This document shows positions 40,947 through 56,781 of a stretch of 64,000 nucleotides of DNA, in pieces. The translations under genes were made by a program, and so were the position numbers. Numbering within the stretch: position 1 is the first letter of the stretch; the number at the start of each line of letters is the position of its first letter. The DNA is taken from the NCBI GenBank assembly GCA_964541605.1, contig CAZIQY010000001.1, positions 41,533 to 105,532 of the forward strand. Direction: 5' to 3'. The DNA comes from an uncultured Syntrophaceae bacterium (GTDB lineage Bacteria > Desulfobacterota > Syntrophia > Syntrophales > UBA2185). The notes beneath the pieces are model-generated. The model had not been told where the DNA came from. It saw only the letters and a list, made by a program, of their open reading frames with translations, and searched no databases.

Positions 40947-40971
40947 TTAAAAATTCCTCCAAATTTAATCG

Positions 40972-42019: not shown

Positions 42020-42492
42020 TGGCAGAATCCCTTGCAGAACAGATTCTTGGTAAGATCGGCAATATCTCTGAGCTTTATCATCGCCTTATGATTGTCGCTG
42101 CCCCGACCGGCGCCGGAAAAACAAGGACACTCCAGGAGGTTCACAAGCAGATAAGTGCACCGCTCATCAATGTGAACCTGGAGTTATCGCGGCGCATGCT
42201 CGATCTCACCGAACGTCAAAGGGCGCTGCAACTTCCCCGTCTCATAGGAGAGATGCTCGATGAGATCAAAGAAAACACGATTCTACTCGACAACATCGAG
42301 ATTATTTTTGATGTTGCTTTAAAACAGGACCCCCTAAGGCTTCTTCAGGGGCTTTCAAGAAACAAAACAATTGTCGTGAGTTGGAACGGTTCGCTTGAAA
42401 ATGATTTTCTTACTTACGCTGTGCCAGGTCACCCGGAATACAGACGTTATCCGACGCGGGGAGGGGACTTGCTGATCGTAGGGCCGGCATGA
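42019..42492 (+). CDS. brxF: BREX type 3 P-loop protein BrxF-like
   Basis: ~157 aa small ATPase with Walker A AAPTGAGKT. Size, motif and position immediately upstream of a BrxC/PglY-type gene match BrxF. Confidence 0.65.
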   Translation: MAESLAEQILGKIGNISELYHRLMIVAAPTGAGKTRTLQEVHKQISAPLINVNLELSRRMLDLTERQRALQLPRLIGEMLDEIKENTILLDNIEIIFDVALKQDPLRLLQGLSRNKTIVVSWNGSLENDFLTYAVPGHPEYRRYPTRGGDLLIVGPA

Positions 42493-42534
42493 ACGGAATA
42501 AATTTTCCCAGAACAGGGGAGGAAGGATGAACCC

Positions 42535-44055
42535 ATGAAATACGGTGATTTAATCCAGTTTGAACCGATCGAATCCGTTGTGCAATTACGGAGCGCTAAT
42601 TCTTCCGCCGCCGCCCGGCAGCTTGTCGAAACCTATGTCATCTCCGTCGAGATGGCTGAAAGGCTAATCGGTCTCGCTATCCCGCAGCTTCAGTTTGACC
42701 AGCCCGCAGACAATAAAGGGATGCTGGTTGTCGGCAATTACGGCACGGGAAAATCCCATCTTCTATCTGTCATCTCCGCCCTGGCGGAGAACGTAGAACT
42801 CGCCTCCCATCTGAGCGACCAATCCGTGGCCAAAGCAGCAAAAAAGATTGCGGGGCGATTCAAGGTTGTCCGGACCGAGATCGGCGCAACGACCATGTCC
42901 CTGCGCGATATTATCATTGCCGAATTGGAAGAGCATTTGGAAGCCATTGGCGTGATTTTTTCCTTCCCACCCACATCCAAAGTATCAGAAAACAAAAGCG
43001 CCTTCGAGGAAATGATGGCGGCGTTCCACCAGAAGTTTCCTGATCTCGGACTGCTCCTGGTCGTGGATGAACTTCTCGATTTCCTCCGGACACGAAAAGA
43101 TCAGGAGCTTATCCTGGATCTCAACTTCCTCAGGGAGATCGGCGAGGTATGCAAGGACCTGCGTTTCCGATTCATCGCCGGTGTTCAGGAAGCGATCTTC
43201 GACAGTCCCCGGTTTTCTTTTGTGTCCGATAGCATCCGCCGGGTAAAGGATCGGTTTGAACAGATTCTGATCGCCCGTAATGATGTCAAATATGTGGTGG
43301 CCGAGCGCCTGCTCAAGAAGACCGGCGACCAGCAGGTTAAAATCCGGGAGTATCTGACGCCCTTCGCCAGGTTCTACGGCCTTATGAATGAGCGTATGGA
43401 CGAGTTTGTCCGCCTGTTTCCCGTGCATCCCGATTATATTGATACGTTCGAGCGGGTCGCGGCGGTGGAAAAACGCGAGGCACTCAAGACCCTGTCCCTC
43501 GCCATGAAGAAACTGCTCAATCAGGACGTCCCGGACGACTGTCCGGGACTTATCGCTTACGATAGCTACTGGATAACCATTAAAGAAAACGCGGCGTTTC
43601 GCGCCATCCCGGAAATCAGGGAGGTCATTGAGTGCAGCGCAAAACTTGAGGGGCTGATCAACAGCAATTACCCGAAAGGCAAAAATAAGGACTTTGCCGG
43701 AAGAATTATCCATGGCCTGAGCCTGCACCGGCTGACCGTCGGCAGCATTGAAACGCCTGTGGGCCTGACATCGGAATCATTGAGGGATTCTCTGTGCCTC
43801 TTTGATCCAAACGTAGCCGATCTTGGCGGAGATCCTGCCGATGATCTGCGTGGAGAAATTGAATCGGCAATACGAGTGATCAGCCAAGCCGTCAATGGTC
43901 AATTCCTGTCGGCAACAGAGACGGACGTCAATGGAAGACTGAGCGGGCAGTTCTATCTCGACGTTCATAAAACCGTGGATTACGCGCACAGGTTCGTAAT
44001 CGCACCGAGAGTCTCGAATCATCGCAGCTTGATCGCTATTATTATGAAGCCCTGA
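42535..44055 (+). CDS. brxC: BrxC/PglY-type (DUF6079-like) large P-loop ATPase, N-terminal fragment (frameshifted gene)
   Basis: 506 aa. N-terminus [18 protein letters not shown] and Walker [10 protein letters not shown]. The last ~22 codons ([23 protein letters not shown]) look out of frame relative to the following ORF. Confidence 0.7.
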
Positions 44056-44063
44056 AGCGGGTC

Positions 44064-46280
44064 ATGGAATGTACTGATTACACCTATGTCACCGGCTACA
44101 AGATCTGGCAGCATGAGATCGAGTGGCTGGAACGGAAGGCCGCACGCCTTGGGTACCTCTTTTTCGGCGCGCCCAATGAGCGATCCACGGCAGTGCCGCC
44201 CCGCGATTTTTATCTTTACTTCCTTCAACCTTTCGAGGCGCCGTCCTTCAAAGATGAGAAGAAGCCGGACGAATTATTCCTTCACCTGAAAAATGACGAT
44301 GAAACATTCCGCACGGCATTACGAGGCTATGCGGCGGCCCTCGATCTCGCCTCTACTGCATCAGGCCATGCCAAAAACACCTATGAATCCAAAGCGACAA
44401 ACTTTCTGAGAGAACTGGTCCAATGGCTCCAGAAGAACATGGCGACGGCCTTCGATGTCACCTGTCAGGGACGGACAAAACCCCTCACCGAATGGGCAAA
44501 GGGAAAGTCGATCCGCGAGCTGTCCGGCATATCGTCCCATGAGCGGATCAATTTTCGCGATATGGTGAACACCGTCGCGGGAATGTGTCTCGACAGCCAT
44601 TTCCGGGATCAGGCACCGGATTACCCCTTCTTTTCGGTGCTCATCACGGGCGCCAACCGCGCCCAGGCGGCACAGGACGCCTTGCGGGCCATTGCCGGCC
44701 AGAACCGCACCAAGCAAGCAACGGCGGTTATGGATGCCTTGGGGCTCCTCGACGGGGAGCGGATTGATCCGTATCAGTCAAAATACGCCCGATATATTCT
44801 CGACAATGCAAAGAAGAAAGGCGCCGGCCAAGTTGTCAATCGGTCTGAACTGTTCCAGGAGGTTCTCGGGGTCGAGTATCTGGCGCCGCAAACGCTGCGA
44901 CTGGAACCGGAATGGGCGGTGGTGGCACTGGCCGCGCTGGTTTATGCCGGAGAGATTGTATTGGCCATTCCCGGCAAGAAGTTCGACGCCACTATCTTAC
45001 CACAAATGGCCGGTACCGGCGTGGAAGAGCTGGCCCAATTCAAACACGTCGAACGCCCTAAAGACTGGAATATCCCGGCGCTCAAAGCACTTTTTGAACT
45101 GTTGGGACTCCCTCCAGGAATGGTTCAACAGATTACCCAAGCGGATGAGATACCGGTTCAGCAAATGCAGAAGACTGTCTCGGAAACGGTCAACCGGTTT
45201 GTCGTCGCCCAGCAGAATTTACATAATGGCCTGTTCTTCTGGGGGCGAAGTCTCCTGTCCGAGGATGAAGTTCAGAAGTTGAAAGCCCGACTGGAAGAAA
45301 CCAAGACATTTCTCGAATCGCTTCAGGCGTACACCACGCCGGGGAAACTGAAGAATTTCCGTTACGATGCCCAGGAGGTAAAGGGCCATCACGAAGGATT
45401 TCAGTCCCTGAAGGAAATTGAATCCCTGCAGGAACTGGCCAATGAGCTCGGGACGGTCGCGTCGTATCTTTCCACAGCGGAAGCGGTTTTGACTACCGGG
45501 CATGAATGGCTCGACAAGGTGAAGTCCGTGCGCGATGAAGTCCTCGGGCAGATCGGCGACCCGGACAAGCGCGGGGCGGCCGCCTTTCGCCAGCAAACCC
45601 AACGCCGGTTGACGGACCTAAAAAAGGCCTATAGCCAGATCTACCTCGCCCACCACAGCAAGGCACGGCTGGGTGTAAAGGATGACAAGCGCAAGGTCCA
45701 GCTCATGGGCGACGAGCGGCTCAAGGTATTACAAAAACTCTCTACTATCAATCTTATGCCGCTCCAGCACCTGACCGATTTCCAGAACCGGCTTGCAGGC
45801 CTGAAAAGTTGCTTCGCCCTCACCGAACAGGAACTCAACGCAGCACCCGTCTGCCCGCACTGCAACTATAAACCGGGATCGGAACCCCAGACGGCGCCCG
45901 CTGCGAAGATGCTCGATGCTTTGGACGACGAGCTTGATAAACTGGTCGAGAATTGGACACAGACCCTTTTGACAAATCTGGAAGACCCGACCACTAAAGG
46001 AGCCTTAAGCCTGCTCAAACCCGAGCCACGCAATCTGGTAGATGGCTTCATAAAAAAAAGAGCCCTGCCGGACAACCTAAACCAGGACTTCATTTTCGCA
46101 CTCAAAGAAATCCTCTCGGGACTTACGCCTGTGTCCATCAAAATCGCTGACCTACGTTCCGCGCTCCTTGCGGGCGGCTCACCGGTCACCCCGGCGGAAA
46201 TGAGAAAGCGGTTCGAAGACTACCTGGATCATCTCATTAAGGGTAAAGAGCCAGGTAAGGTACGGATTGTATTGGAGTAA
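44064..46280 (+). CDS. brxC: BrxC/PglY-type ATPase, C-terminal fragment (frame open from 43971)
   Basis: 738 aa. Upstream of the listed Met, the same frame reads ...[41 protein letters not shown], which continues naturally from fragment 1. The two fragments together make ~1240 aa, as expected for BrxC/PglY. Confidence 0.7.
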
Positions 46281-46318: not shown

Positions 46319-47935
46319 ATGAAGATCGCAGAACTCAAAAAACTGCTGAAAGCTGGTGAATGGAACGATATCGAGTTCAAGGAAGCTCGCACCGCCGTTT
46401 CCAAATCCGCGTTTGAGACCGTATCCGCCTTCGCCAACACCCACGGCGGCTGGATCGTGTTCGGCGTCTCCCAGCATGGCGAAGAGTTTAAAGCCACCGG
46501 CGTTGAGATGCCGGACAAGGTGTAGGGCGATTTCCTGTCTGTTCTTCATGCCGACGCCAAGGTCAATCATGACGTTCAGGTAACGGAGAAACGGTACGAT
46601 TTTGATGGTGCAACTGTTCTTGCCTTTCACATTGCTGAAAATCCACGCACCCGGAAACCGGTCTATCTGGACGGCGACATCCGGCGGACCTTCCTGCGCA
46701 AGGGCAGCGGGGACTACAAAGCCCAGATGACTGACATCGAGCGCATGTTACGCGACGCCACCGCCGACCGGTGGGATAGCCAGCCGTTTGACCGTGTGCT
46801 GCTCAAAGAGGCGTTTCATCCGAGCAGCCTGCGGTGGTATCGGGACCGGTTCCATCAGGTCAATGCCGGCTTCGATCCTAAACAACCCGATCAGGAGTTT
46901 CTCTATCACTGGGGCTATCTGCTCCGGGATGGAAAACGTTTCATCCCGATCCGTGGCGCCATCATGCTCTTTGGGTCTCCCTTGGCGGTCCATCAGCTCA
47001 TTCCGCGACCGACGCTGGATTTTCAGTTTTTAGGCTATGCCACCGACGAGCCCATGCCCGAGACGCGCTGGATTGACCGGATCGTATGCGAGGAGAACAT
47101 CATCCAGGCCTGGGATCAACTGGTCAGCAAGTACAAGTTCTTCATGCCCAAACCTTTTAAAGATATTGATCCGGTTACCCTGGGCCGCCGAGACGATCCC
47201 CCGGGGTTTCGCGTGTTCCGCGAAGCGGCTGTCAACCTGCTGACCCATCAGGACTATGGCGATCATTCCCGCAAGGCTGTCATAAAATTCTTCCGCGACG
47301 GCATCCAGTTCTGGAATCCCGGCGACGTATTCGGGGACGATTCCCGGCTGCTTGAACCCGGAGAAAAAGAGGTCCGCAACCCGGTCATTGCCACGGCCAT
47401 GCGCCGGATAGCCATGTGCGAGCAGGCGGGCACGGGCATGCGCATGATGCGCGAAGCATGGCAGGCCCTCGGACACCCGGCGCCTGTTTACAAGAACGAC
47501 CGTGCATGGAAAGCATTCGATCTCTTCATCCCGGAACTGGATAAAGAAGTGGATATGGCCTCGGATCTGATGAAGGCCATGTTCGGGAAGACACCGACCC
47601 CTTCAGGCGGCACGGATACCGAACAAGTCGAAGCCCATGAGGAGGCCCAAGTCAAGGCCCAAGAGGCCCAAGTCGAAGCCCAAGTTGAACTCCTTAAGTG
47701 GCAGCATGACATCCTGACATCTTGTTCTTCCGGCGAGAAGACAGGCAAGGAATTCTTGGAAATTGCCGGCTATAGCAGCCGCACTGGGAACTTCAAGAAG
47801 GGTCTGCAAAGACTGCTTGATTATAAGCTTCTTGAATTGACCGTTCCCGACAAACCCAACAGCCGTCTGCAGAAATACCGGCTCACCGACAAGGGCCGTC
47901 GGCTTCTGGTCAAGGCGCGAGGAGACGGCGTTTGA
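46319..47935 (+). pseudogene. AlbA_2 (Schlafen-like) domain / ATPase-like / winged-helix protein interrupted by an in-frame TAG
   Basis: The ORFs 46319-46525 and 46727-47935 are in one frame. The only interruption is TAG at 46523-46525, and the sequence continues ...PDKV*GDFLSVLHADAKVNHDV.... The N-terminus ELKKLL..GE...IEFKE fits the AlbA_2 pattern. The C-terminus has PDKPNSRLQKYRLT, typical of this regulator family. Confidence 0.7.
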
Positions 47936-47999
47936 CCAAGTTTGTGACCAACTACTGCCAACTTGGTTATTGAACAAATCGAAGGAGAAGGAGTATCTA

Positions 48000-50021
48000 A
48001 TGAGACTTACATACCTTCGCATACAAAATTTCCGGGCATGTAAAGACATTACCTTAGAAATTGGCGAGATGCATGCGCTCGTCGGCGCCAATAATGCCGG
48101 CAAATCCGCAATGCTTCGGGCCTTGGATTTCCTATTCAACCCGAGTACAAAGTCCTTGAATGAAGAATCTTTCTGGAACAAAGACACCAGCCTGGAAATC
48201 CGAGTGGAAGCCATTTTTACTGACCTTACAGACAAAGAAAAAGAAGCGTTGGGCGCTTATCTGAAGGCGGATAAGACATTCCACATGGCCCGCTCCGCAA
48301 GAGTGGGCGTTAAGAGCGGCGAATCGGAGACCGATTCAGGACAGGACGAAGAAAAGATTGGAATTGGACAACATTACAAAAAACCCATTCCTGAGCCGGA
48401 ATGGCTCCAGGAATCCAACATCAACGGAAATAACATCAAGGAATGGTGGAAAAACAAAGACCAATTAGCCGTAGGCGGCGTAAGTTTCGCGGATTTTCTC
48501 AATGTAACAATCAAGGCACCGACTGTGGGAGATTGGAAAGAAAAGGCCAAAGAATTTATCACGAATCATGCAGACAAGATTCCGATGCAAGACGCATGGA
48601 CCGATAATCCGAAGGGCTATGCCAATGTCCTAAAGGGGACATTGCCCTTTTTCGTTCTCGTTCCTGCGGTCAGGGATGTGACCGAAGAATCCAAGGGAAC
48701 CAAAAGCAGCCCCTTCGGCAAACTGCTGTACGCAATCCTTGACACGATTACTCAGGAAAAGAGGGTCAAGATCGAAGGCATTCTCGGAGATGTTGCTAAA
48801 CAGATGAACCGCGCCGGCGGGGAAGAGCGTGTTCCGTTGATTGCCGACACGGAGAGGCAACTCAACACGCTGCTGAACGATTTCTTTACCGGATGCGACC
48901 TCGAGATCGAGTTTGAAACCCCGACGCTGGAAGTCCTTCTCAGTGCGCCAAAACTTTTCGTGGACGACGGCTTCAGGAATGCCGTCGAGAACAAGGGGCA
49001 CGGCCTGCAAAGGGCAGTCATCTTCACTATTCTGCGGCGCTATGCGGAACACATGACATCCGCGCCCGATGGGAAGAAGCGCAATCTCATTCTCGCGGTC
49101 GAGGAACCGGAACTCTATATGCATCCGCAAGCACAACGAATTATCCGACAAGTGTTTCGTAAGATCGCCGAGGGAGGAGACCAGGTAATCTTCTCAACCC
49201 ATTCGTCACTACTCGTGGATGTTGCCTATTTTGATGAGATCATTCGGATGGAAATCAGTGTCGAGAAAACAGACGGCAAGAAAACGATGATAAGCAGGGC
49301 ATGGCAGTTGCCCATGTCGAAGATGGTTAAGGACCTTGAGACCAGATTTCCGGCTCTCAAAGGAAAAGCCACACCTGAATCCATGCGTGATCGGTACTCC
49401 CATGCTTACAATCCCCGGCGCAACGAAGGATTTTTCGCTTCAAAAATCATCCTTGCTGAGGGTCTGACCGAGGAATACAGTTTGCCTATTTACGCCGATG
49501 CGCTTCCGGATTGTTCCTTTGACCCTCAAGGCATCAGCGTTGTTGAATGCGGCGGTAAAGGAGCGATGGATCGCCTCTTCAGGATATTCAACGAACTCCA
49601 TATCCCATGTTATATTCTCTTTGATTATGACAACGGTAACCCAGACAAGAACATCATTGAAAAATCCAAAGAACTCCTCTCCCTGGTTGGTGAAATTCAG
49701 GATGCCCCACAATCGCTTTTAGTCACCGATTGTGTAGCCTGCTTCCCAAAGAAATGGGAATCTGATCTGAAAAGCGAAATCCCGGACATTGAAACCTTAA
49801 CAGCCGAAGCCAGAAAGGTACTTGGGCTGAGTGACGACACTGGCAAACCGCTGATTGCCCGTTATATCGCCAGAAAAATCACATCCCGCAGTCCGGCAGT
49901 TGTTCCACCAAGTCTCAAGACAATTATTGAAAAGGCCGTGGCCGTGACATGGAAACAGAGTTGCCTCAAGACCGGGGCATGCCAGCCCATTTCTGAAGTG
50001 CAGGGGAAAAATGATGGATGA
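48000..50021 (+). CDS. OLD-family ATP-dependent nuclease (ABC-type ATPase + Toprim), no partner helicase
   Basis: The start is taken at ATG 48000 (GAAGGAGAAGGAG upstream): MRLTYLRIQNFRA. Walker A GANNAGKS, signature-like GHGLQR, Walker B ILAVEEPELYMHPQ. C-terminal Toprim with ILAEGLTEE ... VVECGGK ... LFDYDNG. Its stop overlaps the pglXI start by 11 nt. Confidence 0.8.
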   Translation: MRLTYLRIQNFRACKDITLEIGEMHALVGANNAGKSAMLRALDFLFNPSTKSLNEESFWNKDTSLEIRVEAIFTDLTDKEKEALGAYLKADKTFHMARSARVGVKSGESETDSGQDEEKIGIGQHYKKPIPEPEWLQESNINGNNIKEWWKNKDQLAVGGVSFADFLNVTIKAPTVGDWKEKAKEFITNHADKIPMQDAWTDNPKGYANVLKGTLPFFVLVPAVRDVTEESKGTKSSPFGKLLYAILDTITQEKRVKIEGILGDVAKQMNRAGGEERVPLIADTERQLNTLLNDFFTGCDLEIEFETPTLEVLLSAPKLFVDDGFRNAVENKGHGLQRAVIFTILRRYAEHMTSAPDGKKRNLILAVEEPELYMHPQAQRIIRQVFRKIAEGGDQVIFSTHSSLLVDVAYFDEIIRMEISVEKTDGKKTMISRAWQLPMSKMVKDLETRFPALKGKATPESMRDRYSHAYNPRRNEGFFASKIILAEGLTEEYSLPIYADALPDCSFDPQGISVVECGGKGAMDRLFRIFNELHIPCYILFDYDNGNPDKNIIEKSKELLSLVGEIQDAPQSLLVTDCVACFPKKWESDLKSEIPDIETLTAEARKVLGLSDDTGKPLIARYIARKITSRSPAVVPPSLKTIIEKAVAVTWKQSCLKTGACQPISEVQGKNDG

Positions 50022-52806
50022 CCTTTTCGGTAGTCCAGAAACAAAAGCCAAATTAGCAAGGCGGATCGAATGTCTCGGCATGACATTCACGAATGACGAG
50101 AAGCGGCGGAAGCACTTCCTGGAGAAACTGAGTGAAAAGCTCAAGTACCCCGATTTTCGCAAGATCGAGGGATTCCCCATCGGCTCGGAAGAGGACATCC
50201 TGGCGCTCTCCGACCCGCCATACTACACAGCCTGCCCGAATCCCTTCATCGCGGATTTCATCAAGCACTATGGCAAGCCCTTCGACCCGAGCATACCTTA
50301 CAGCCGCGAGCCGTTCGCCGCGGATGTGAGCGAGGGTAAGAACGACCCGATCTACAATGCACACTCCTACCATACCAAGGTGCCTCACAAGGCCATCATG
50401 CGGTACATACTCCATTACACCGAGCCGGGTGATGTGGTCTTCGATGGATTTTGTGGGACCGGAATGGCAGGAGTAGCCGCGCAGCTTTGCGGTGACCGAA
50501 GTGCAATTGCATCTCTCGGCTATACACTAACTGAGGATGGAAGCATCATAGATGAGGACAAGCAGACGATCTCTCAATGTGGGGCCCGAGTTCCTATCCT
50601 GAACGACCTCTCGCCCGCTGCAACATTAATAGCCGCTGGTTACAATTTGACAACGGATTCGAAGGGGTTCGCACAATTTGCCAGGAAGCTTCTGGACAAA
50701 TTCAACCGCGAATACGGATGGATGTATGAGACGCGGGATCACAAGACAGGCGCGACTTGTCCGATTGACTTCACCATCTGGTCGGACATCTTTTCCTGTC
50801 CCCATTGCGCCGGAGAATTGGAGTTCTGGGACTTGGCCTATGATGAGGCATCAGGAACGATTGAAGATCAGCCCACTTGTCCACATTGCTCGGCTGAGGT
50901 TTCCAAGCGCGATCTCGTCAGACTCACAACCACCTACTACGACAAGGCGTTAAAAGCGACCCGGACACGTCAGGTCTTGCGTCCGGTAGAGATTCGATAC
51001 CAGCACCAGGGAGCGAAGAAGAGCAAGAAACCCGACAAGGACGATTTCGCCTCCCTTGAGAAAATCGAAAGACTGATCGAGTCCATCGAGTACCCGACAG
51101 AATTGATGATGTTTGTGCCGGAGGGAGAGGAATGGGGTGACCTCTATCGCGGATATCACGAGGGGATCAGCCGAGCACACGATTTTCATCTGCCGCGCCA
51201 GCTCGTCGCGTTTTCTCTGTTGTGGCAAATGGCTGATGACCTGCCCAAGGAGGAGATGAAGCGGCTCTGGCGGTTTACGTTGCAAGGCATTGTTGTGAGC
51301 TTCACGCGCAGGAACCGGTTTCGCGAGAAGGCATACTCTCAAGTAAACACGAACCTCAGTGGCACACTGTATATCGGCTCAAGAGTCAGTGAACCGAGCC
51401 CAACCTATGTATTGACCGGCAAGATCAAGAGATTTGGCAATGCGATTCCAAAGGGTGGCTCTGCGGTAGCTATAACCACGCAGTCTCTCGCCTCCGTGCT
51501 GATCCCGGATAGCTCAGTTGATTACGTGTTCATCGATCCGCCCTTCGGCGACAACTTGCCCTACGCCGAGCTGAATTTCCTGTGGGAGGCTTGGCTCCGC
51601 GTATTCACGAACTCGGGGCAGGATACCGTTGTCAGCGGCAAGCAGCGGAAAGATCTGGCTGTCTACACAAACATGATGACGGATTGCCTGAAACAGGTCT
51701 ATCGCGTCCTCAAGCCAGGCCGGTGGGTTACGGTTGAGTTTCACAATTCCAAGAACGCTGTTTGGACCGCGATACAGGAGGCTATGGGGCGCGCCGGTTT
51801 CATCATCGCTGATGTCAGTGTGCTCGATAAGGGGATGAAGACCAAGAAGCAGATGCATGCCAAGGCAGTCGACAAGGACCTTGTAATCTCCGCCTACAAA
51901 CCGAACGGCGGTCTCGAAAAGCGATTCCAACTCCAGGCTGGAACCGAAGAAGGGGTTTGGGATTTCATTCGAACCCATCTGCATCAGCTTCCGGTTTTCC
52001 TCAAGAAGGATGGGCGTGCTCAGGTCATCGCAGAAAGACAGCAGGTTCTGTTGTTTGACAGGATGGTCGCCTTCCACGTCCAGCGCGGCGTAACCGTTCC
52101 TCTGTCCGCGGCGGAGTTCTATGCCGGACTTGTCCAGCGGTTCTCCGAGCGGGATGGGATGTACTTCCTCCCCGAGCAGGTGGCCGAGTACGACAAGAAG
52201 CGCATGACCGTCCGAGAGGTTCTGCAGATCCTGCTCTTTGTCACTGACGAGTCCTCCGCGATTCAGTGGCTTCGACAGCAGCTCCTGAGAAAGCCCCAAA
52301 CGGCAGGTGAGTTGAAGCCCCAGTTCATGCAGGAAATCGGAGGATGGCAGAAAACCGAGAAGCTGCTCGAACTCGATGAACTGCTTGATCAGAACTTCCT
52401 ACGTTACGATGGCAAGGGCGAAGTGCCGAACCAGATTCACAGCTATCTGTCCACCAACTTCAAGGAGCTGCGCAACCTGCCGAAGGACGACGAAGGTCTC
52501 CGCGGCAAAGGCAAGGACCGATGGTACGTGCCAGACCCGAACAAGGCCGGCGACCTGGAGAAGATGCGCGAGAGGTCGCTGCTCAAAGAGTTCGAGGACT
52601 ATCGGACATCCAGCCAGAAGCGCCTGAAGGTGTTCCGCCTCGAGGCCGTCCGCGCTGGCTTCAAAAAGGCATGGCAGGACAAAACGGAAGAGGGTTACCG
52701 CACTATCATCGAGGTAGCAAAGAAGATCCCGGAAAACGTACTCCAAGAAGACCCAAAACTTCTAATGTGGTACGACCAAGCGCTCACCCGCGCGAGGGAG
52801 GAATGA
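50011..52806 (+). CDS. pglXI: BREX type 3 DNA methyltransferase PglXI-like (N6_N4_Mtase family)
   Basis: 931 aa. DPPY (SDPPYYTACPNPF) followed by the AdoMet motif VFDGFCGTGMAG, a CxxC...CxxC insert, and a second catalytic-type FIDPPFG. It belongs to the ParB-less N6/N4 methylase class used by type 3 BREX rather than the PglX class. Confidence 0.8.
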   Translation: MMDDLFGSPETKAKLARRIECLGMTFTNDEKRRKHFLEKLSEKLKYPDFRKIEGFPIGSEEDILALSDPPYYTACPNPFIADFIKHYGKPFDPSIPYSREPFAADVSEGKNDPIYNAHSYHTKVPHKAIMRYILHYTEPGDVVFDGFCGTGMAGVAAQLCGDRSAIASLGYTLTEDGSIIDEDKQTISQCGARVPILNDLSPAATLIAAGYNLTTDSKGFAQFARKLLDKFNREYGWMYETRDHKTGATCPIDFTIWSDIFSCPHCAGELEFWDLAYDEASGTIEDQPTCPHCSAEVSKRDLVRLTTTYYDKALKATRTRQVLRPVEIRYQHQGAKKSKKPDKDDFASLEKIERLIESIEYPTELMMFVPEGEEWGDLYRGYHEGISRAHDFHLPRQLVAFSLLWQMADDLPKEEMKRLWRFTLQGIVVSFTRRNRFREKAYSQVNTNLSGTLYIGSRVSEPSPTYVLTGKIKRFGNAIPKGGSAVAITTQSLASVLIPDSSVDYVFIDPPFGDNLPYAELNFLWEAWLRVFTNSGQDTVVSGKQRKDLAVYTNMMTDCLKQVYRVLKPGRWVTVEFHNSKNAVWTAIQEAMGRAGFIIADVSVLDKGMKTKKQMHAKAVDKDLVISAYKPNGGLEKRFQLQAGTEEGVWDFIRTHLHQLPVFLKKDGRAQVIAERQQVLLFDRMVAFHVQRGVTVPLSAAEFYAGLVQRFSERDGMYFLPEQVAEYDKKRMTVREVLQILLFVTDESSAIQWLRQQLLRKPQTAGELKPQFMQEIGGWQKTEKLLELDELLDQNFLRYDGKGEVPNQIHSYLSTNFKELRNLPKDDEGLRGKGKDRWYVPDPNKAGDLEKMRERSLLKEFEDYRTSSQKRLKVFRLEAVRAGFKKAWQDKTEEGYRTIIEVAKKIPENVLQEDPKLLMWYDQALTRAREE

Positions 52807-52809
52807 GCG

Positions 52810-53769
52810 ATGCCGAATCGAACCGTGCAGCCTGTCCACTTTGAGGACTTCGATGGCCATCAGTTTGAGCGCCTCGTATTCGCTTATTTGCTCAGAACGG
52901 ACAACTGGCTGTCACTTGAGTGGTATGGGCAGACAGGAAGCGATTCAGGAAGAGACATCTGGGGCATCAGGGAACGGGACGGGCATCCCCAAGGGCAGAA
53001 GGTTTGTATCCAATGTGCCAATCAGAAGTCACTTACGTACATGAAAGTACAGGAAGATTTTGAGAAGATTCTTAGCGGGCCTAACGGGAAGCCGGATACT
53101 TTTATTGTCGTTGCTGGCGGAACGGTGTCGGCAACGCTGAGAGATAAAACCAAGAAACTTTGTGAAAAGAAACAGGTCTATACGAGCGAGATTTGGTCCG
53201 GGAAGGAATTTGAAGAGCGGCTAAGAGCAAAGGCTGAGTCTTTGTTAAAACGGTTCATTGGAGGAGAGGAGTTTCCGGACGTTCCAGCTGACATTCGTGA
53301 CTTCGCGGAAGCGATCACTCCCCAGTCCGATGATGAGATTCTCGCTTTGATGGCCGGGCTCTTTGACAGGCCCGCCTTTTCTACCCCGTTCCATCAAGAG
53401 AGTTCAATTCCAGCTTTCAAAAAAGCGATCACCGACACGATTGAAGCTCTGAACACCGGAATACACCGCCTTAGAGATGGAACAGAAATCCGTCGCATTC
53501 CAAGCAGGCACGCAATCCAATCAGTGGAGACCAAGAGGACATTGTCACATATTGAACGAATGCTCAGTGAACTCCGTGCCAAATACGATGAAAGCATCAA
53601 GACTGGAGAAATCCGCCCGTGTGGCTGCAATGTTCCAGACTGCCCTGTCTTTTTTGTTTCCTCTCGCGCAGCTAACGAAATAGACCGCCTGCGTGAAGAA
53701 ATACTGGGAACTTTTCGCAGGCTATATCCTGCTTTCGATGTAAGGCTTGGTTGGAGGCACTGGTGCTAA
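52810..53769 (+). CDS. uncharacterised protein with N-terminal Mrr-like PD-(D/E)xK nuclease signature
   Basis: 319 aa. FE.LV...L followed by GSDSGRDIWG and VCIQCANQK resembles the Mrr_cat pattern (D.G.D ... Q.K). The C-terminal ~150 aa have no motif I recognise. Only a 3-nt gap separates it from pglXI. Confidence 0.45.
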   Translation: MPNRTVQPVHFEDFDGHQFERLVFAYLLRTDNWLSLEWYGQTGSDSGRDIWGIRERDGHPQGQKVCIQCANQKSLTYMKVQEDFEKILSGPNGKPDTFIVVAGGTVSATLRDKTKKLCEKKQVYTSEIWSGKEFEERLRAKAESLLKRFIGGEEFPDVPADIRDFAEAITPQSDDEILALMAGLFDRPAFSTPFHQESSIPAFKKAITDTIEALNTGIHRLRDGTEIRRIPSRHAIQSVETKRTLSHIERMLSELRAKYDESIKTGEIRPCGCNVPDCPVFFVSSRAANEIDRLREEILGTFRRLYPAFDVRLGWRHWC

Positions 53770-53975
53770 TGGGCGATTGGTACTACAGCCCGGACCACGG
53801 GCAGCTATGTCAGGTCATCGACTCTCAGACTCTCTGGAGTGAGACGACCTGCCGGGTGTGGCTGCCATGGTGCAAACGAAATACCAAGCACCTGAAGGGC
53901 AGCCGCATTGAGGCGGCCTGCCCCGGACTCGAGAATGCTTGGCAGAAGGGCGGCAGCCATGAGCAACTGGCGTGA
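53769..53975 (+). CDS. small hypothetical ORF (68 aa), translationally coupled on both sides
   Basis: The ATG overlaps the upstream stop (TAATG), and the 3' end overlaps the pglZ start by 17 nt. MGDWYYSPDHGQLCQVIDSQTLWSETTCRVWLP looks like a small beta (SH3/Tudor-like) module. The remainder is basic and low-complexity. Confidence 0.35.
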   Translation: MGDWYYSPDHGQLCQVIDSQTLWSETTCRVWLPWCKRNTKHLKGSRIEAACPGLENAWQKGGSHEQLA

Positions 53976-55965
53976 TCAGATTCTCAAGGAATTTGCACCG
54001 CAAGTTTCTCGGCTTACCCTGGTGGCAGACCCGGATGGGCTGCTGTTGGAGGAAGGTATACTGGAGGGCATCCGGGAACGGGGATTCGAGCTCATTCCTT
54101 TTGAAGACCCTGTCGCTTTTCGCTATGCCTACGAATCCGGATTCCGTTCGCGATGGGATTGCGGAGAACAAGAACAGACCGACCTTGTGGTAGTGTTGCG
54201 ATCCCAGACCAGCGACCTTAGCACATTGCCCTTCGATTTGCTTCAGGCGGGTCGCAAGCTGTCTTTCAATCTTGGCGACATCTTTCCCACTCTCAGTTAT
54301 CCCATCATTACTGCCCTGGATCGCGGCGATCTTGACGCCTTGTACAAAGCCCAGAGACGCCATATGCCCGGTCAGCTCGGCGATAACGCCACCAAGGAGT
54401 TCGTCCTTAGGCATGTTTTTGAAATCGCGGTGGAACTCATCAAGGAGCCATCCGATCTGCTGAGGGTACTCCTGCGCCGTCACTACCGCGGACAGTGTAT
54501 ACCCGGGGTTCTCGACGACCGCTTTATCCAGATTCTCCGGCAAACTGACAGCTTCGCCGGGTGGCCTCTGGAGAGAATCGTTCCGGATCGGGAAGCTTTT
54601 TTGTCCTTCCTACAAGAACGCTGGCCATTGTTCCTGAACCGGGGGCATGTTCAGGACACCCAGACCGGTGTAGAAGAATATGCCGGATACATCTTCCAGA
54701 TACCGGGACCGCCGGATCTGCCGTTTGATCACCATGATGTCCGCGTTTACATGGACACCTTCTTTCTTGAAGGTCTTCTGCACCCGGTCACCCACGAACA
54801 GGCGGGAATGATCGCCAAGACCTGGGCCGGTATCGGTGTCCGAACCGACTTTGCCGGAGATCGAACGCGTCGTCTGGAAAAGCTGCTTGCCGGCATCCGC
54901 ACTGCTATTCCGGCTGAGGATGTTCGCTATGGAGAGTGGTTATTATTTGCCCGCGGTTGGGCGGAGTTGATCGTCATTGCCCATGAGGCGCCCGCTGATA
55001 TCAAAACCGAGCAAGGAATCAAAGAAATTCAGACCCACGTTGACCATGCCTTCACTTCCTGGTTGACCCGGAGGTTCGCCGGGCTGATCAACCTGCCTCC
55101 TGCGCCGCCGGTCATGCTCCATCATCTGCCCCGATACCTAGCGCGCCAGGTGATTGAGGACAAAACGTTCAAGGCCGCTCTCTTGGTGATTGACGGGCTG
55201 GCCTTGGACCAGTGGATCGTGGTGCGTAAAATAATTGCGTCCCAGCGGCCCATGATCCGCTTCCGGGAAAACGTTGTATTTGCCTGGGTTCCGACACTCA
55301 CCTCGGTCTCCCGGCAAGCCCTCTTCGCCGGCAAGCCGCCGATTTTCTTTCCGAACAGCATCCTGACGACCGAGAAGGAATCTGCCTTGTGGTCACAGTT
55401 CTGGGCAGATCAAGGACTGACGCCGAACGAGATCGCCTACGCCAAGGGATTTGGTGACGGAAGCTTGGCCCATCTCGAAGAGATGCTTACTCATCCCAGA
55501 ATCAGGGTGGCGGGGCTGGTCATAGACAAGGTTGATAGAATCATGCACGGCATGGAACTGGGCACGGCGGGCATGCACAACCAGGCGCGTCAATGGGCGG
55601 AACAGTCTTACCTGGCCTCTCTTCTTGACCTGCTCCTCGACCGGGGATTCCTGGTTTTTCTGACATCAGATCACGGAAACATTGAAGCAGAAGGTTGTGG
55701 ACGTCCCTCGGAAGGGGCAGTCGCCGACCTGCGCGGCGAACGGGTCCGCATCTATTCCGATCCGCTTCTGAGGAAAAAGGTCGGAGATCGATTTCCGGAC
55801 GCGGTGGAATGGCCGCCCATTGGGTTGCCGAATGATTATCTACCCTTACTGGCACCCTCTCGAAAAGCGTTCGTTCGTGAAAAAGAACGTCTCGTCAGTC
55901 ACGGTGGGATATCCATAGAGGAAGTCATCGTTCCTCTTGTTCAAATAGAGAAGAAGTCCGTATGA
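53959..55965 (+). CDS. pglZ: BREX alkaline-phosphatase-superfamily protein PglZ
   Basis: The start is taken at MSNWRDQILKEF (53959). N-terminus L.LV.DPDGLLLEE.IL..I...GFELI.FEDPVAFRY.YE. PglZ domain with VIDGLALDQW and LTSDHGNIEA. Confidence 0.88.
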   Translation: MSNWRDQILKEFAPQVSRLTLVADPDGLLLEEGILEGIRERGFELIPFEDPVAFRYAYESGFRSRWDCGEQEQTDLVVVLRSQTSDLSTLPFDLLQAGRKLSFNLGDIFPTLSYPIITALDRGDLDALYKAQRRHMPGQLGDNATKEFVLRHVFEIAVELIKEPSDLLRVLLRRHYRGQCIPGVLDDRFIQILRQTDSFAGWPLERIVPDREAFLSFLQERWPLFLNRGHVQDTQTGVEEYAGYIFQIPGPPDLPFDHHDVRVYMDTFFLEGLLHPVTHEQAGMIAKTWAGIGVRTDFAGDRTRRLEKLLAGIRTAIPAEDVRYGEWLLFARGWAELIVIAHEAPADIKTEQGIKEIQTHVDHAFTSWLTRRFAGLINLPPAPPVMLHHLPRYLARQVIEDKTFKAALLVIDGLALDQWIVVRKIIASQRPMIRFRENVVFAWVPTLTSVSRQALFAGKPPIFFPNSILTTEKESALWSQFWADQGLTPNEIAYAKGFGDGSLAHLEEMLTHPRIRVAGLVIDKVDRIMHGMELGTAGMHNQARQWAEQSYLASLLDLLLDRGFLVFLTSDHGNIEAEGCGRPSEGAVADLRGERVRIYSDPLLRKKVGDRFPDAVEWPPIGLPNDYLPLLAPSRKAFVREKERLVSHGGISIEEVIVPLVQIEKKSV

Positions 55966-56720
55966 AACCCAAGAGTCGGATACAGCAGATCGGCATTGAC
56001 AGGATCGTTCGCCTGGAATGGTTGGAACGAACGGCTCAACTTGCTTTGGCCGTCAATCAGCCAAGCACAGTCAAGCAAAGCATGTTGGAAATTTTAGCGA
56101 CCAGTTTTCCAACATCCAACCCATCTGTCCGGGGGTCACTTGCCAAAACGGTAACTATTTTGATGAATGTCTGGTTATCCGGACCAAAGGAAATTGCCGA
56201 TTTGAGGAAAGTCGGATTGGAGTTGCTGCGCATAAAGTCGGGCGGAGATCGTCTGGCGATACATTGGGCTATGCTTATGGCAACTTATCCCTTCTGGGGC
56301 GCTGTAGCAGGCCAGGCAGGACGGCTGCTGAGGCTTCAGGAAACCATCACCGCGGAACAGGTTCAGCGCCGCATCTGCGAACAGTACGGCAAGCGGGAAT
56401 CCGTTTTCAGAAGGGTTCGTTACGTCCTCAGATCTTTTATTGCCTGGGGGGTGCTGCAGGAAACCGAAACAAAAGGCATCTATCGTCGTGGGTTGTCCTT
56501 ATCTATTGACGATCCCCAACTTATCGCATGGGTGATTGAGGCTGCCCTTCATGCGAACCCCAACGGCTCGACAAGATTCACAGACCTTCTGGAGAGCACA
56601 AGCCTATTCCCGTTTCGTCTTGTGACGATTTCCGCGGAACAACTGACCGCAACATCACCCCGCCTGGATCTCTTTCGTCACGGCATGGATGAAGTCCTCG
56701 TAATGTTGCGTAAAAAGTAA
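55962..56720 (+). CDS. BrxA-like (DUF1819-like) terminal BREX protein
   Basis: 252 aa helical protein. Its ATG overlaps the pglZ stop (ATGA). The assignment rests mainly on its position as the last gene of a type 3 locus. I cannot verify the sequence-level similarity. Confidence 0.45.
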   Translation: MKPKSRIQQIGIDRIVRLEWLERTAQLALAVNQPSTVKQSMLEILATSFPTSNPSVRGSLAKTVTILMNVWLSGPKEIADLRKVGLELLRIKSGGDRLAIHWAMLMATYPFWGAVAGQAGRLLRLQETITAEQVQRRICEQYGKRESVFRRVRYVLRSFIAWGVLQETETKGIYRRGLSLSIDDPQLIAWVIEAALHANPNGSTRFTDLLESTSLFPFRLVTISAEQLTATSPRLDLFRHGMDEVLVMLRKK

Positions 56721-56750: not shown

Positions 56751-56781
56751 ATAAAAGATTGGAGCGGGCGATGGGAGTCGA
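56751..56781. repeat. attR-like direct repeat (tRNA-Gly 3' 22 nt plus 9 nt downstream)
   Basis: Identical 31-mer to 41617-41647. It overlaps the T-arm, acceptor stem and CCA of the intact tRNA. Confidence 0.85.

What the first reader, a model, noticed from the sequence alone, without database searches (positions are those of the whole stretch)
52810..53975. Mrr-like nuclease-domain protein and a 68-aa ORF occupy the slot where BrxHII helicase is expected
No helicase motifs (Walker A/DEAD/SNF2) occur anywhere between pglXI and pglZ. Two ORFs sit there instead.

The first is a 319-aa protein. Its first ~75 residues show FE.LV..YLL, GSDSGRDIWG and VCIQCANQK, a pattern like the D...(E/Q)xK core of Mrr-type restriction endonucleases. 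Its C-terminal half (including CGCNVPDC) matches nothing I recognise.

The second is a 68-aa ORF. Its first ~33 residues (WYYSPDHGQLCQVIDSQTLWSETTCRVWLP) resemble the small SH3/Tudor-like N-terminal modules seen on defence-island helicases. The rest is basic and low-complexity.

Inference: either the nuclease-like protein functionally replaces the helicase, or the 68-aa ORF is the stump of a deleted brxHII.

Both ORFs are start/stop-coupled to their neighbours (3-nt gap, TAATG overlap, 17-nt overlap), which argues that they are expressed.
Basis: partly seen in the sequence, partly recalled or inferred. Interest (0 to 1): 0.75.

Follow-up and report, generated by a model that had tools for sequence, protein, structure and literature searches.

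The report
Cargo nuclease gene beside helicase deletion scar
In this type 3 BREX phage-defence operon the helicase gene has been deleted, leaving a 68-codon patchwork scar, and the 319-aa nuclease-like gene next to it is a mobile accessory gene that normally sits beside an intact helicase, so it does not replace the helicase.

Summary

**The 68-aa ORF is a recombination scar.**
- Codons 1-33 are the start of brxHII (local HMM E=5e-16; PADLOC E=9.8e-9).
- Codons ~38-60 are a decayed copy of pglXI codons ~867-890.
- The last codons are the brxHII 3' end, which overlaps the pglZ start.
- The same junction occurs in three related loci that carry different cargo.
- Other type 3 loci show independent helicase deletions.

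**The 319-aa protein belongs to an unnamed family with more than 900 members.**
- The N-terminal domain has a restriction-endonuclease fold (AlphaFold pLDDT 89; Foldseek hits to Cap4, MspJI and AspBHI).
- The canonical (E/Q)xK lysine is absent. E20, D45, D49, K79 and D83 are invariant.
- The C-terminal domain has no structural match. Elsewhere it is fused to phosphorylase, CHAT, TPR and histidine-kinase modules.

**The replacement idea fails.**
- Close homologues sit pglXI→p319→intact brxHII→pglZ in about nine distinct loci.
- None of 80 PglZ-anchored loci carries the gene.

This is an ordinary accessory effector in the variable slot of a BREX operon. Embedded nucleases in BREX operons, and type 3 loci without the helicase, are both already published.

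The parts
52810..53769 (+). p319: 319-aa cargo gene, a two-domain protein of an unnamed family with more than 900 members
   Evidence: ORF. 925 homologues with E<=1e-3, nearly all ~320 aa and named 'hypothetical'. AlphaFold2 mean pLDDT 89.1, pTM 0.84.
52810..53259 (+). p319 N-terminal domain (aa 1-150): restriction-endonuclease (PD-(D/E)xK) fold with a non-canonical motif
   Evidence: Pfam Mrr_cat E=0.0019, 18.7 bits, below the cutoff of 21. PADLOC PDC-M58A 6e-8 and LmuA 5.5e-6. Foldseek PDB hits: Cap4, MspJI, AspBHI, EcoT38I, E about 1e-3 to 5e-2, probability up to 0.99. Viral 'restriction endonuclease', probability 1.0, rmsd 3.6 over 130 columns. E20, D45, D49, K79, D83 invariant; residue 70 never K.
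53257..53766 (+). p319 C-terminal domain (aa 150-319): helical domain with nearly invariant H234, C271, C273, C278; a mobile module of unknown fold class
   Evidence: Domain model pLDDT 87. Foldseek PDB gives only generic four-helix bundles, E>=0.2. phmmer against 1.84 billion representatives gives 314 hits. The domain is also found behind PNP_UDP_1, CHAT and TPR domains and in front of HisKA/HATPase_c.
53769..53975 (+). p68: chimeric scar ORF left by deletion of brxHII
   Evidence: The same junction is present in L001, L003 and L004.
53769..53867 (+). Scar part 1: native brxHII start and codons 1-33 (first half of the Tudor domain)
   Evidence: BrxHII HMM positions 6-40, E=5e-16. 88-89% DNA identity to brxHII in L020 and L013. 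The upstream junction with p319 is the same as in L083 and L081, where brxHII is intact.
53877..53946 (+). Scar part 2: decayed copy of pglXI codons ~867-890
   Evidence: PglXI C-terminal HMM scores 12.2 bits, against at most 3.9 in 900 shuffles. 44 of 78 nt match window 52609-52686 for the 78-nt stretch 53877-53954, the single best ungapped match among 63,723 positions. Up to 51 of 78 to pglXI of L067.
53947..53975 (+). Scar part 3: brxHII 3' end (…GGSHE), overlapping the pglZ ribosome-binding region and start. The native stop is mutated, so the ORF runs 9 nt further.
   Evidence: DNA matches the brxHII 3' end and pglZ start of L020, L013 and L007. Alignment with BrxHII C-termini. Stop comparison with L001 and L003.
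50011..52806 (+). pglXI (type 3 BREX methyltransferase), left border of the variable slot
   Evidence: PADLOC PglXI E=0, 1325.9 bits.
53959..55965 (+). pglZ, right neighbour of the scar
   Evidence: PADLOC PglZ 6.3e-302 from model position 1. pN/pS 0.18-0.22 among three loci that share the deletion.
55962..56720 (+). brxA
   Evidence: PADLOC BrxA 1.9e-92.
42016..46280 (+). brxF (42016-42492) and brxC (42535-46280). brxC is split by a 1-nt deletion near 43994.
   Evidence: PADLOC. DUF6079 halves. Alignment with L001 shows the missing base.
46727..50021 (+). First cargo slot: p402 (HATPase_c_4 plus winged-helix domain) and an OLD-family ATPase-TOPRIM nuclease
   Evidence: Pfam and PADLOC. Both classes are described as BREX-embedded effectors in PMC12839542.

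Best explanation
The interval holds two unrelated things that lie in the variable cargo slot of a type 3 BREX operon, between pglXI and brxHII.

**(1) p319 is a mobile accessory defence gene.**
- It travels as a cassette with short pieces of the flanking core genes: about 90 nt of the pglXI 3' end and about 100 nt of the brxHII 5' end.
- It is translated by coupling to pglXI.
- *Inferred mechanism:* it is a self-contained sensor-effector. The conserved C-terminal helical domain, probably zinc-binding, senses an infection cue or a partner. It then licenses the N-terminal restriction-endonuclease-fold domain to cut nucleic acid. This gives a second, BREX-independent layer of defence.

**(2) p68 is a three-part recombination scar and has no function as a protein.**
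- It consists of brxHII codons 1-33, a decayed pglXI 3' fragment, and the last brxHII codons.
- *Inferred history:* an earlier cassette junction (brxHII 5' end joined to a pglXI 3' end, as still seen in L086) was followed by a deletion. That deletion removed everything up to the end of brxHII.
- *Inferred reason the frame stays open:* ribosomes that start at the native brxHII start site are delivered to the overlapping pglZ start.

**The helicase loss is a separate event.**
- It is older than the divergence of the window, L001 and L003.
- It is not tied to p319.
For: **Shown: the scar.**
- Matches to BrxHII.
- The pglXI-derived middle part.
- The identical junction in L001, L003 and L004, which carry DUF3644, Gabija-like and ABC-ATPase cargo respectively.
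- Independent deletions with other junctions in L094/L143 (residues 1-21 joined to 915-949, in frame), L025, L021, L064/L068, L073 and L074.
- A chimeric brxHII-5'/pglXI-3' ORF in L086, and extra brxHII 5' fragments in L038, L060 and L061.
- In the N-terminal part of the stump pS is 0.25-0.50, against 0.16-0.19 in pglZ, which indicates a mosaic origin.

**Shown: p319 is cargo.**
- It lies pglXI→p319→intact brxHII in L081, L083-85, L096-98, L100, L101, L112 and L119.
- It is absent from L001-L080.
- More distant members sit in type I and type II RM, DISARM-like and MADS-like loci and in other defence islands.
- Its G+C is lower than that of the core genes.

**Shown: fold and domain mobility.**
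- Nuclease fold.
- The C-terminal domain is swapped among different output or input modules.

**Shown: pglZ is under purifying selection after the deletion.** pN/pS is about 0.2.

**Published context.** BrxHII is present in 77% of type 3 systems, and embedded PD-(D/E)XK, OLD and Schlafen effectors are common in BREX loci (PMC12839542).
Against: - **Catalysis unproven.** The (E/Q)xK lysine is missing and Q68 is L in 27% of members. All sequence-model hits are below curated thresholds. Foldseek E-values are only about 1e-3.
- **Sensor role inferred only.** The role of the C-terminal domain rests on its domain combinations. It has no structural or family match.
- **Partner in distant members.** 21 distant members have a conserved ~188-aa partner that is absent here. 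The family may therefore not always act alone.
- **Selection on the stump not excluded.** The stump ORF is open in all four related loci, and its pN/pS of 0.2-0.4 does not exclude some selection.
- **In-frame bias not significant.** Four of six independent deletions that keep both ends are in frame; my own binomial estimate is p about 0.1.
- **brxC frameshift.** The brxC frameshift may mean the BREX part of this copy is no longer active, or it may be an assembly error.
Confidence: 0.7

Rival explanations
1. One reading: the nuclease-like protein has taken over the helicase's role, giving a helicase-less BREX variant that uses p319 as a core component.
For: p319 occupies the slot between pglXI and pglZ and is tightly coupled on both sides. 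A second, independent helicase deletion also lies directly downstream of a p319 gene in L094/L143.
Against: About nine distinct loci have p319 immediately upstream of an intact 930-968-aa BrxHII. Loci with the identical stump carry DUF3644, Gabija-like or ABC-ATPase cargo instead. In 0 of 80 PglZ-anchored loci is p319 present, although 24 of 58 evaluable loci lack an intact helicase. About 2 of roughly 14 distinct p319-bearing type 3 loci lack the helicase, which is no more than the published 23% background.
Confidence: 0.05
2. p319 is a restriction-type partner of DNA methyltransferases. It would cut unmodified DNA at or near sites that the upstream methyltransferase (here PglXI) protects, and so would be functionally integrated with BREX methylation.
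For: Family members lie directly downstream of several unrelated methyltransferase or specificity genes. These are PglXI with a 3-nt gap, HsdM+HsdS (L130, L160, L162; also the L089 locus), a type II methyltransferase (L163) and an Eco57I-type gene (L091). In all, 10 of 44 non-redundant upstream neighbours are methyltransferase or S subunits.
Against: 34 of 44 upstream neighbours are something else, such as DUF5677, helicases, PIN, ParE, caspase or STAND proteins. No recognisable DNA-specificity domain is present. RM and BREX operons are known hosts of unrelated embedded defence genes (PMC12839542).
Confidence: 0.12
3. The N-terminal restriction-endonuclease fold is catalytically dead and acts as a nucleic-acid-binding or sensing module, as in the 'inactive REase' domains of conflict systems. 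On this reading p319 would be a regulator or sensor and would not act as an effector.
For: The canonical lysine is replaced by A, T, V or S in all 67 aligned members, and Q68 is L in 18 of 67. The Mrr_cat score is below threshold. BrxHII itself carries an inactive REase domain according to PMC12839542.
Against: E20, D45, D49, K79 and D83 are invariant and N71 is nearly so, around the predicted active-site strands and helices. Degenerate REase domains usually lose such residues. In sister architectures the same C-terminal domain is joined to clear effectors (PNP_UDP_1, CHAT), which places the nuclease-fold domain in the effector position. It is established knowledge of the PD-(D/E)xK superfamily that catalytic residues can migrate to neighbouring elements.
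Confidence: 0.2
4. p68 is kept as a functional element. Either it is a translational coupler that delivers ribosomes to pglZ, or it is a micro-protein that retains a BrxHII N-terminal interaction surface.
For: The ORF is open in all four related loci, including an in-frame 51-nt deletion in L004. pN/pS is 0.2-0.4. It keeps the native brxHII ribosome-binding region and start. Four of six independent deletions that retain both gene ends are in frame.
Against: Only 33 of about 75 Tudor-domain residues remain. The middle of the ORF is a decayed pglXI fragment, 56% nt identical. The stop codon has drifted by 9 nt. pN is 2-3 times that of pglZ. The low pN/pS of the N-terminal part is explained by exchange with intact brxHII 5' ends, since its pS is far above that of pglZ. 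The in-frame bias is not significant (p about 0.1). Other loci have no stump at all: L030, L069, L072 and L057.
Confidence: 0.15

Closest known systems
Auxiliary or backup nuclease effectors embedded in BREX operons (standalone PD-(D/E)XK REases, BrxU/GmrSD, PARIS- and OLD-type modules), catalogued in PMC12839542
   Same: p319 is a single nuclease-fold gene placed inside the core operon between two BREX genes. It sits in the same locus as an OLD-TOPRIM gene and a HATPase_c_4/wHTH gene. The slot holds GmrSD, Gabija-like, DUF3644 and ABC-ATPase cargo in related loci.
   Different: The p319 family has no name or Pfam model for its full length. It lacks the canonical (E/Q)xK lysine. It carries an uncharacterised C-terminal domain that occurs with several other effector or signalling modules. 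No experiment exists for it.
Type 3 BREX (BrxF, BrxC/PglY, PglXI, BrxHII, PglZ, BrxA; Goldfarb et al. 2015 classification, from my own knowledge and as summarised in PMC12839542)
   Same: Five of six core genes are present in canonical order.
   Different: BrxHII is reduced to 33 N-terminal and about 5 C-terminal codons. brxC carries a frameshift. Absence of the helicase is itself known: 23% of type 3 systems per PMC12839542, and 24 of 58 evaluable loci here.
Mrr / MspJI / AspBHI type IV restriction endonucleases and the Cap4 (CBASS) nuclease domain
   Same: They share the PD-(D/E)xK core fold of the catalytic domain. Foldseek probability is 0.96-0.99. Pfam Mrr_cat aligns over residues 13-108.
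   Different: p319 has no SRA-like or other modified-DNA reader and no SAVED/CARF domain. The domain order is reversed relative to MspJI, with the nuclease at the N-terminus. The catalytic lysine is not at the canonical position. Scores are below family thresholds.
Lamassu LmuA (variable N-terminal effector plus conserved C-terminal region, controlled by the SMC-like LmuB and LmuC)
   Same: A PADLOC LmuA model aligns to residues 10-202, E=5.5e-6. The same logic applies: a conserved C-terminal module combined with exchangeable effector domains.
   Different: No LmuB or LmuC gene is present in the operon. Members occur mostly as single genes or, in a distant subgroup, with an unrelated ~188-aa partner.

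Membership tests
Type 3 BREX system | PglZ, BrxC/PglY and a PglXI-type methyltransferase | tested here: met
   PADLOC: PglZ 6.3e-302, BrxC 2.4e-247 and E=0 for the two halves, PglXI E=0. brxC is interrupted by a 1-nt deletion.
Type 3 BREX system | BrxF and BrxA | tested here: met
   PADLOC BrxF 1.4e-70 and BrxA 1.9e-92.
Type 3 BREX system | BrxHII Swi2/Snf2 helicase (~940 aa) | tested here: not met
   Only BrxHII residues 9-38 are matched in the window. There is no helicase Pfam domain between pglXI and pglZ. The locus is a helicase-deleted derivative.
BrxHII (for the 68-aa ORF) | [quoted passage not shown] | tested here: not met
   The first 33 residues match (E=5e-16; E=9.8e-9). The last ~5 residues match the C-terminus. 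Everything in between is missing and is replaced by a pglXI-derived fragment. p68 is therefore a remnant of BrxHII and cannot be filed as a member.
PD-(D/E)xK / Mrr_cat (PF04471) | Restriction-endonuclease core fold (alpha-beta-beta-beta-alpha-beta) | tested here: met
   AlphaFold2 pLDDT 89 with elements H16-30, E33-39, E49-56, E59-70, H77-88, E97-102. Foldseek hits to Cap4, MspJI, AspBHI and EcoT38I, probability up to 0.99. Viral REase hit, probability 1.0.
PD-(D/E)xK / Mrr_cat (PF04471) | Score above Pfam's gathering threshold | tested here: not met
   18.7 bits against a cutoff of 21, E=0.0019. A few homologues carry a precomputed PF04471 hit (P0037, P0057).
PD-(D/E)xK / Mrr_cat (PF04471) | Catalytic D…(D/E/Q)xK motif | tested here: not met
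   D49 is invariant. Position 68 is Q in 48 and L in 18 of 67. Position 70 is A, T, V or S, never K.
Type IV (modification-dependent) restriction enzymes of the MspJI/AspBHI type | Modified-base reader domain (SRA-like) joined to the nuclease | tested here: not met
   The C-terminal domain model finds no SRA-like or any other significant structure (best E=0.2, four-helix bundles). It has no Pfam or NCBIfam match.
Lamassu (LmuA effector) | Adjacent SMC-like LmuB (and LmuC) genes | tested here: not met
   None of the ten operon proteins matches LmuB or LmuC in PADLOC. Neighbours of 78 non-redundant family members show no recurrent SMC partner.
BREX-embedded auxiliary nuclease effectors (as defined in PMC12839542) | A nuclease-fold gene within or immediately adjacent to the core BREX genes, flanked by BREX genes on both sides | tested here: met
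   p319 lies between pglXI and the brxHII remnant plus pglZ. It is in the same position in L081, L083, L096, L097, L100, L101 and L119.
BREX-embedded auxiliary nuclease effectors (as defined in PMC12839542) | Demonstrated nuclease or anti-phage activity | not testable with these tools
   This needs biochemistry and phage assays.

The most novel reading that the evidence does not exclude
The p319 family may be a new, widespread single-gene defence effector. Its C-terminal domain, probably zinc-binding, would be a previously undescribed sensor module. Evolution has plugged this module into nuclease, nucleoside-phosphorylase, CHAT-protease and histidine-kinase outputs. Type 3 BREX operons would exchange such cargo as cassettes carrying 'handles' made of the pglXI 3' end and the brxHII 5' end. 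These exchanges would leave chimeric mini-ORFs that double as translational couplers for pglZ. Helicase-less type 3 BREX would remain functional, since pglZ is under purifying selection after the loss.
Probability: 0.3. Interest if true: 0.5.

Novelty: new member of a known kind. Interest (0 to 1): 0.3.

Why it matters
The finding removes an attractive but wrong idea, that a nuclease substitutes for the BREX helicase. It shows how the idea arose: a cargo gene lies next to a deletion scar.

Three modest points of wider interest remain.

1. It flags an uncharacterised protein family of more than 900 members that recurs inside methylation-based defence operons (BREX, type I and II RM, DISARM-like, MADS-like). 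Its C-terminal domain is a candidate new sensor module.
2. It gives sequence-level evidence for how cargo is exchanged in type 3 BREX. The junction scars are built from the ends of the flanking core genes.
3. It shows that helicase-less type 3 loci persist. Synonymous divergence in pglZ among loci sharing the deletion is about 0.16-0.19, and pglZ remains under purifying selection. This bears on whether BrxHII is essential.

None of these points overturns current views, because embedded nucleases and the absence of BrxHII in a quarter of type 3 systems are already published.

Tried and rejected
- **DNA-level constraint on the brxHII 5' end.** I asked whether it is an unusually conserved DNA element, such as a recombination site or an RNA. 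Identity of synonymous codons in the first ~30 aligned codons is 0.57, against about 0.48 across 30 helicase genes. That is too small a difference to argue for constraint. Rfam finds only a tRNA in 41.5-57.5 kb. The promoter and terminator scans are at shuffle level.
- **Hidden p319 relatives among other cargo.** HMMs of the full length, the N-terminal domain and the C-terminal domain found nothing among the 192 slot ORFs of L001-L080 (best E=0.7).
- **Sequence search of the PDB with the family profile.** Only spurious coiled-coil hits, E>=0.17.
- **Origin of the scar's middle part.** It did not match the helicase in any frame. It turned out to come from pglXI.
- **p319 with its distant subfamily's partner genes.** Neither the ~188-aa nor the ~205-aa partner is encoded in the window.
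- **Literature.** No paper in the held library mentions PADLOC's PDC-M58. PMC12839542 does not discuss stumps, pseudogenes or hotspots in type 3 loci.
- **Active-site geometry.** I could not inspect the AlphaFold coordinates, so the spatial clustering of E20, D45, D49, K79 and D83 is untested.
Full report
**1. Observation**

- The first runs 52810-53769 (319 aa) and the second 53769-53975 (68 aa).
- There is a 3-nt gap after the pglXI stop and a TAATG stop/start overlap between the two ORFs.
- The second ORF overlaps the pglZ start at 53959 by 17 nt.

PADLOC models identify the surrounding operon as type 3 BREX.
- brxF lies at 42016-42492.
- brxC lies at 42535-46280 and is in two pieces.
- A HATPase_c_4/winged-helix gene lies at 46727-47935.
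- An OLD-family ATPase-TOPRIM gene lies at 47970-50021.
- pglXI lies at 50011-52806, pglZ at 53959-55965 and brxA at 55962-56720.

A full-length BrxHII query matches the window only with its residues 9-38, at 53778-53867. The helicase is therefore truly absent.

**2. The 68-aa ORF**

*Match to BrxHII*
- Its first ~35 residues match the N-terminus of BrxHII. PADLOC's BrxHI|BrxHII model, positions 5-38 of 933, gives E=9.8e-9.
- An HMM I built from 30 intact BrxHII proteins of related loci gives E=5e-16 for positions 6-40. The other two frames give nothing.
- At the DNA level, 53778-53866 is 88-89% identical to the 5' end of brxHII in L020 and L013.
- 53947-53993 matches the brxHII 3' end and pglZ start of the same loci.
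- A published analysis assigns BrxHII residues ~1-75 to a Tudor domain (PMC12839542).

*The middle part comes from pglXI*
- The middle of the ORF (…KHLKGSRIEAACPGLENAWQK…) does not match the helicase.
- It is a diverged copy of pglXI codons ~867-890 (…KRLKVFRLEAVRAGFKKAWQD…).
- An HMM of 70 PglXI C-termini scores the three stump sequences (window, L003, L001) at 12.2, 11.3 and 10.8 bits, against at most 3.9 bits for 900 shuffled versions.
- The stretch 53877-53954 matches 52609-52686 at 44 of 78 positions. This is the single best ungapped match among 63,723 positions of the window.
- The best match to any pglXI sampled is 51 of 78.
- The ORF is therefore a three-part chimera: the brxHII 5' end, an old pglXI 3' fragment, and the last brxHII codons (GGSHE).
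- The native stop is mutated, so the frame runs 9 nt further than in L001 and L003.

**3. History of the scar**

The identical junction (…RVWLP|WCKRNT…) is present in L001, L003 and L004. These are Syntrophales-type MAGs whose PglZ is 92-93% identical to the window's. L004 has a further in-frame 51-nt loss.

The gene upstream of the stump differs in each of these loci:
- a DUF3644 protein in L001;
- a Gabija-like OLD plus UvrD pair in L003;
- an ABC ATPase plus a 168-aa protein in L004.

In the window, the p319/stump junction is the same as the p319/brxHII junction in L083 and L081, where the helicase is intact.

Within the stump, synonymous divergence in the brxHII-derived part (pS 0.25-0.50) far exceeds that in pglZ (0.16-0.19). 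The 5' part has therefore been exchanged along with the cargo, and this alone can explain its low pN/pS.

Other loci show the same kind of debris.
- In L086, a 68-aa ORF upstream of a 92%-identical p319 is a fusion of BrxHII residues 4-33 and PglXI residues 902-931.
- L099 has a pglXI 3' fragment after p319.
- L038, L060 and L061 carry extra copies of the brxHII 5' end.

I infer that cargo moves between type 3 loci together with short pieces of the flanking core genes. The window's scar would be such a junction, later extended by a deletion that removed the rest of brxHII.

**4. Helicase loss is common and recurrent**

Of 58 PglZ-anchored loci with enough upstream sequence:
- 31 have a full-length, single-frame BrxHII;
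- 3 have a full-length gene split by frameshifts;
- 24 have only fragments or nothing.

Junctions differ between lineages:
- window clade: the break is after residue 33;
- L094/L143: residues 1-21 joined in frame to 915-949;
- L025: about 38 joined to 897;
- L021: 194 joined to 886;
- L064/L068, L073 and L074: other junctions.

The published figure is BrxHII in 77% of type 3 systems.

pglZ has pN/pS of 0.18-0.22 among three loci that share the deletion. At least pglZ has therefore stayed under selection since the loss.

Four of six independent deletions that keep both gene ends are in frame. My own binomial estimate is p about 0.1. This is compatible with selection for translational coupling into pglZ but does not establish it.

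**5. The 319-aa protein**

It has 925 homologues at E<=1e-3. Nearly all are ~320 aa and none has an informative name.

*N-terminal domain (residues 1-150)*
- AlphaFold2 with 67 homologues gives pLDDT 89.1 and pTM 0.84.
- The domain has the restriction-endonuclease topology.
- In the PDB it finds the nuclease domains of Cap4, MspJI, AspBHI and EcoT38I. E-values run from 1.4e-3 to about 5e-2, with probability up to 0.99.
- In BFVD it finds 'restriction endonuclease' entries, with probability 1.0 and rmsd 3.6 Å over 130 columns.
- Sequence models agree only weakly. Mrr_cat gives 18.7 bits against a cutoff of 21. PADLOC gives PDC-M58A 6e-8 and LmuA 5.5e-6.
- The motif is atypical. E20, D45 and D49 are invariant. 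The strand that should carry (E/Q)xK reads (Q/L)-C-(A/T/V/S)-N. K79 and D83 on the following helix are invariant.
- I think an active nuclease with a relocated lysine is more likely than a dead domain, roughly 55:45, because five charged residues are invariant. This is an inference.

*C-terminal domain (residues 150-319)*
- It is the best-conserved part of the protein, with nearly invariant H234, C271, C273 and C278.
- Modelled alone it reaches pLDDT 87, and it finds only generic four-helix bundles in the PDB (E>=0.2).
- An exhaustive phmmer search of 1.84 billion representative proteins finds 314 proteins that contain it.
- In some of these it follows a PNP_UDP_1 phosphorylase domain (P0145, P0149, P0245), a CHAT protease domain (P0179) or TPR repeats (P0204).
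- In one (P0256) it precedes a histidine-kinase core.
- One conserved module joined to interchangeable outputs is the usual signature of a sensing or regulatory domain in conflict systems. Hence my proposed sensor-effector mechanism.

**6. Genomic context of the family**

*Close homologues (57-90% identical)*
- They lie pglXI→p319→intact brxHII→pglZ in L081/82, L083-85, L096, L097, L098, L100, L101, L112 and L119.
- They usually show the same 3-nt gap after pglXI and a stop/start overlap with brxHII.
- In L087, Kiwa and SbcCD-like genes lie between p319 and brxHII.
- Only the window and L094/L143 combine p319 with a helicase deletion, and the two junctions are independent.
- That is about 2 of 14 distinct p319-bearing type 3 loci, no more than the general rate of helicase loss.

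*PglZ-anchored loci*
- None of the 80 loci contains a family member, even by HMM.

*More distant members (52-67% identical)*
- They sit in type I RM loci (L089, L130, L160, L162), after a type II methyltransferase (L163), and in DISARM-like (L091) and MADS-like (L092) loci.
- Others have assorted defence-island neighbours.
- 21 are followed by a conserved ~188-aa protein, often with a ~205-aa protein that looks membrane-anchored. Neither is encoded in the window.
- Ten of 44 non-redundant upstream neighbours are methyltransferases or specificity subunits. This keeps a 'restriction partner' reading alive at low probability.

*Composition*
- G+C of p319 and the OLD gene (0.48-0.52) is below that of the core BREX genes (0.54-0.58).

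**7. Comparison with what is known**

PMC12839542 (NAR 2026) describes two things:
- BrxHII is absent from 23% of type 3 systems;
- standalone PD-(D/E)XK REases, OLD-TOPRIM modules, and Schlafen/histidine-kinase/wHTH proteins are embedded in BREX core loci as 'auxiliary and backup effectors'.

The window's locus fits that description gene for gene.

The following appear not to be described there or in the other papers I could search:
- the p319 family itself;
- its mobile C-terminal domain;
- the chimeric junction scars.

**8. Verdict**

- The stump alternative is right. It can be refined to a three-part recombination scar.
- The nuclease fold is supported, with a non-canonical active site.
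- The replacement hypothesis is not supported.
- The feature is a new, uncharacterised member of a known kind, an accessory effector in a BREX cargo slot, lying beside a common type of gene loss.
- Interest is low to moderate.

Noticed in passing
window 43985-44000 (brxC, 42535-46280): brxC is split into 506-aa and 738-aa ORFs by a single missing base (TTACG-CGCAC here, TTACGACGCAC in L001). In all related loci the two halves are in one frame. This is either a real pseudogene, meaning the BREX part is decaying, or an assembly error.
   Followed up: partly
window 46727-50021: A second cargo slot lies between brxC and pglXI. It holds a 402-aa HATPase_c_4 plus Fic-like_C (winged-helix) protein and a 683-aa OLD-family ATPase-TOPRIM nuclease (TTG start, 11-nt overlap with pglXI). 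Homologues of both recur at this position in other type 3 loci, for example L025, L033 and L060.
   Followed up: partly
window 56760-56834 (- strand): A tRNA-Gly(CCC) gene lies 40 nt after brxA. rimP and what looks like nusA lie on the other side of the operon (39684-41523, - strand; assigned by inspection only, not searched). The BREX island seems to be inserted next to a tRNA gene. I saw no integrase.
   Followed up: no
L086 5277-5483; L099 3999-4085; L038 5372-10014; L060 6598-6711; L061 226-276: These are recombination debris made of core-gene ends. L086 has a 68-aa ORF fusing BrxHII residues 4-33 to PglXI residues 902-931 just upstream of p319. L099 has a pglXI 3' fragment after p319. L038, L060 and L061 carry multiple extra copies of the brxHII 5' end. 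This suggests that cargo cassettes move together with flanking 'handles'.
   Followed up: partly
L130-L173 (e.g. L135 6527-7093 and the next gene; L167 1673-2239 and 2217-2861): A distant subgroup of the p319 family (52-57% identity) is followed in 21 loci by a conserved ~188-aa protein with no Pfam or PADLOC match. In 8 of these a ~205-aa protein with a hydrophobic N-terminal stretch also follows. This may be an undescribed two- or three-gene module.
   Followed up: partly
P0145, P0149, P0245, P0179, P0204, P0256 (proteins): The p319 C-terminal domain also occurs fused to PNP_UDP_1 phosphorylase, CHAT protease and TPR domains, and upstream of a HisKA/HATPase_c kinase core. It is a candidate new sensor or regulatory module.
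   Followed up: partly
L036, L041, L042, L081 (brxHII genes): These loci have full-length brxHII genes that are split over two or three reading frames. They are additional candidate pseudogenes or assembly errors in MAGs.
   Followed up: no
window 52500-52530 (PglXI …RWYVPDPNK…) versus 53775-53800 (BrxHII stump …DWYYSPDHGQ…): A short resemblance (WY-x-PD) exists between the PglXI C-terminal region and the BrxHII N-terminus. The PglXI HMM aligned across it. It may be chance, or a microhomology used in the brxHII/pglXI junctions.
   Followed up: no
L094 8957-9125; L143 575-740: A clean in-frame brxHII deletion (residues 1-21 joined to 915-949, 54-aa ORF) lies at a short 'EAQ/AQEE' repeat. This suggests a microhomology-mediated deletion, independent of the one in the window.
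   Followed up: partly
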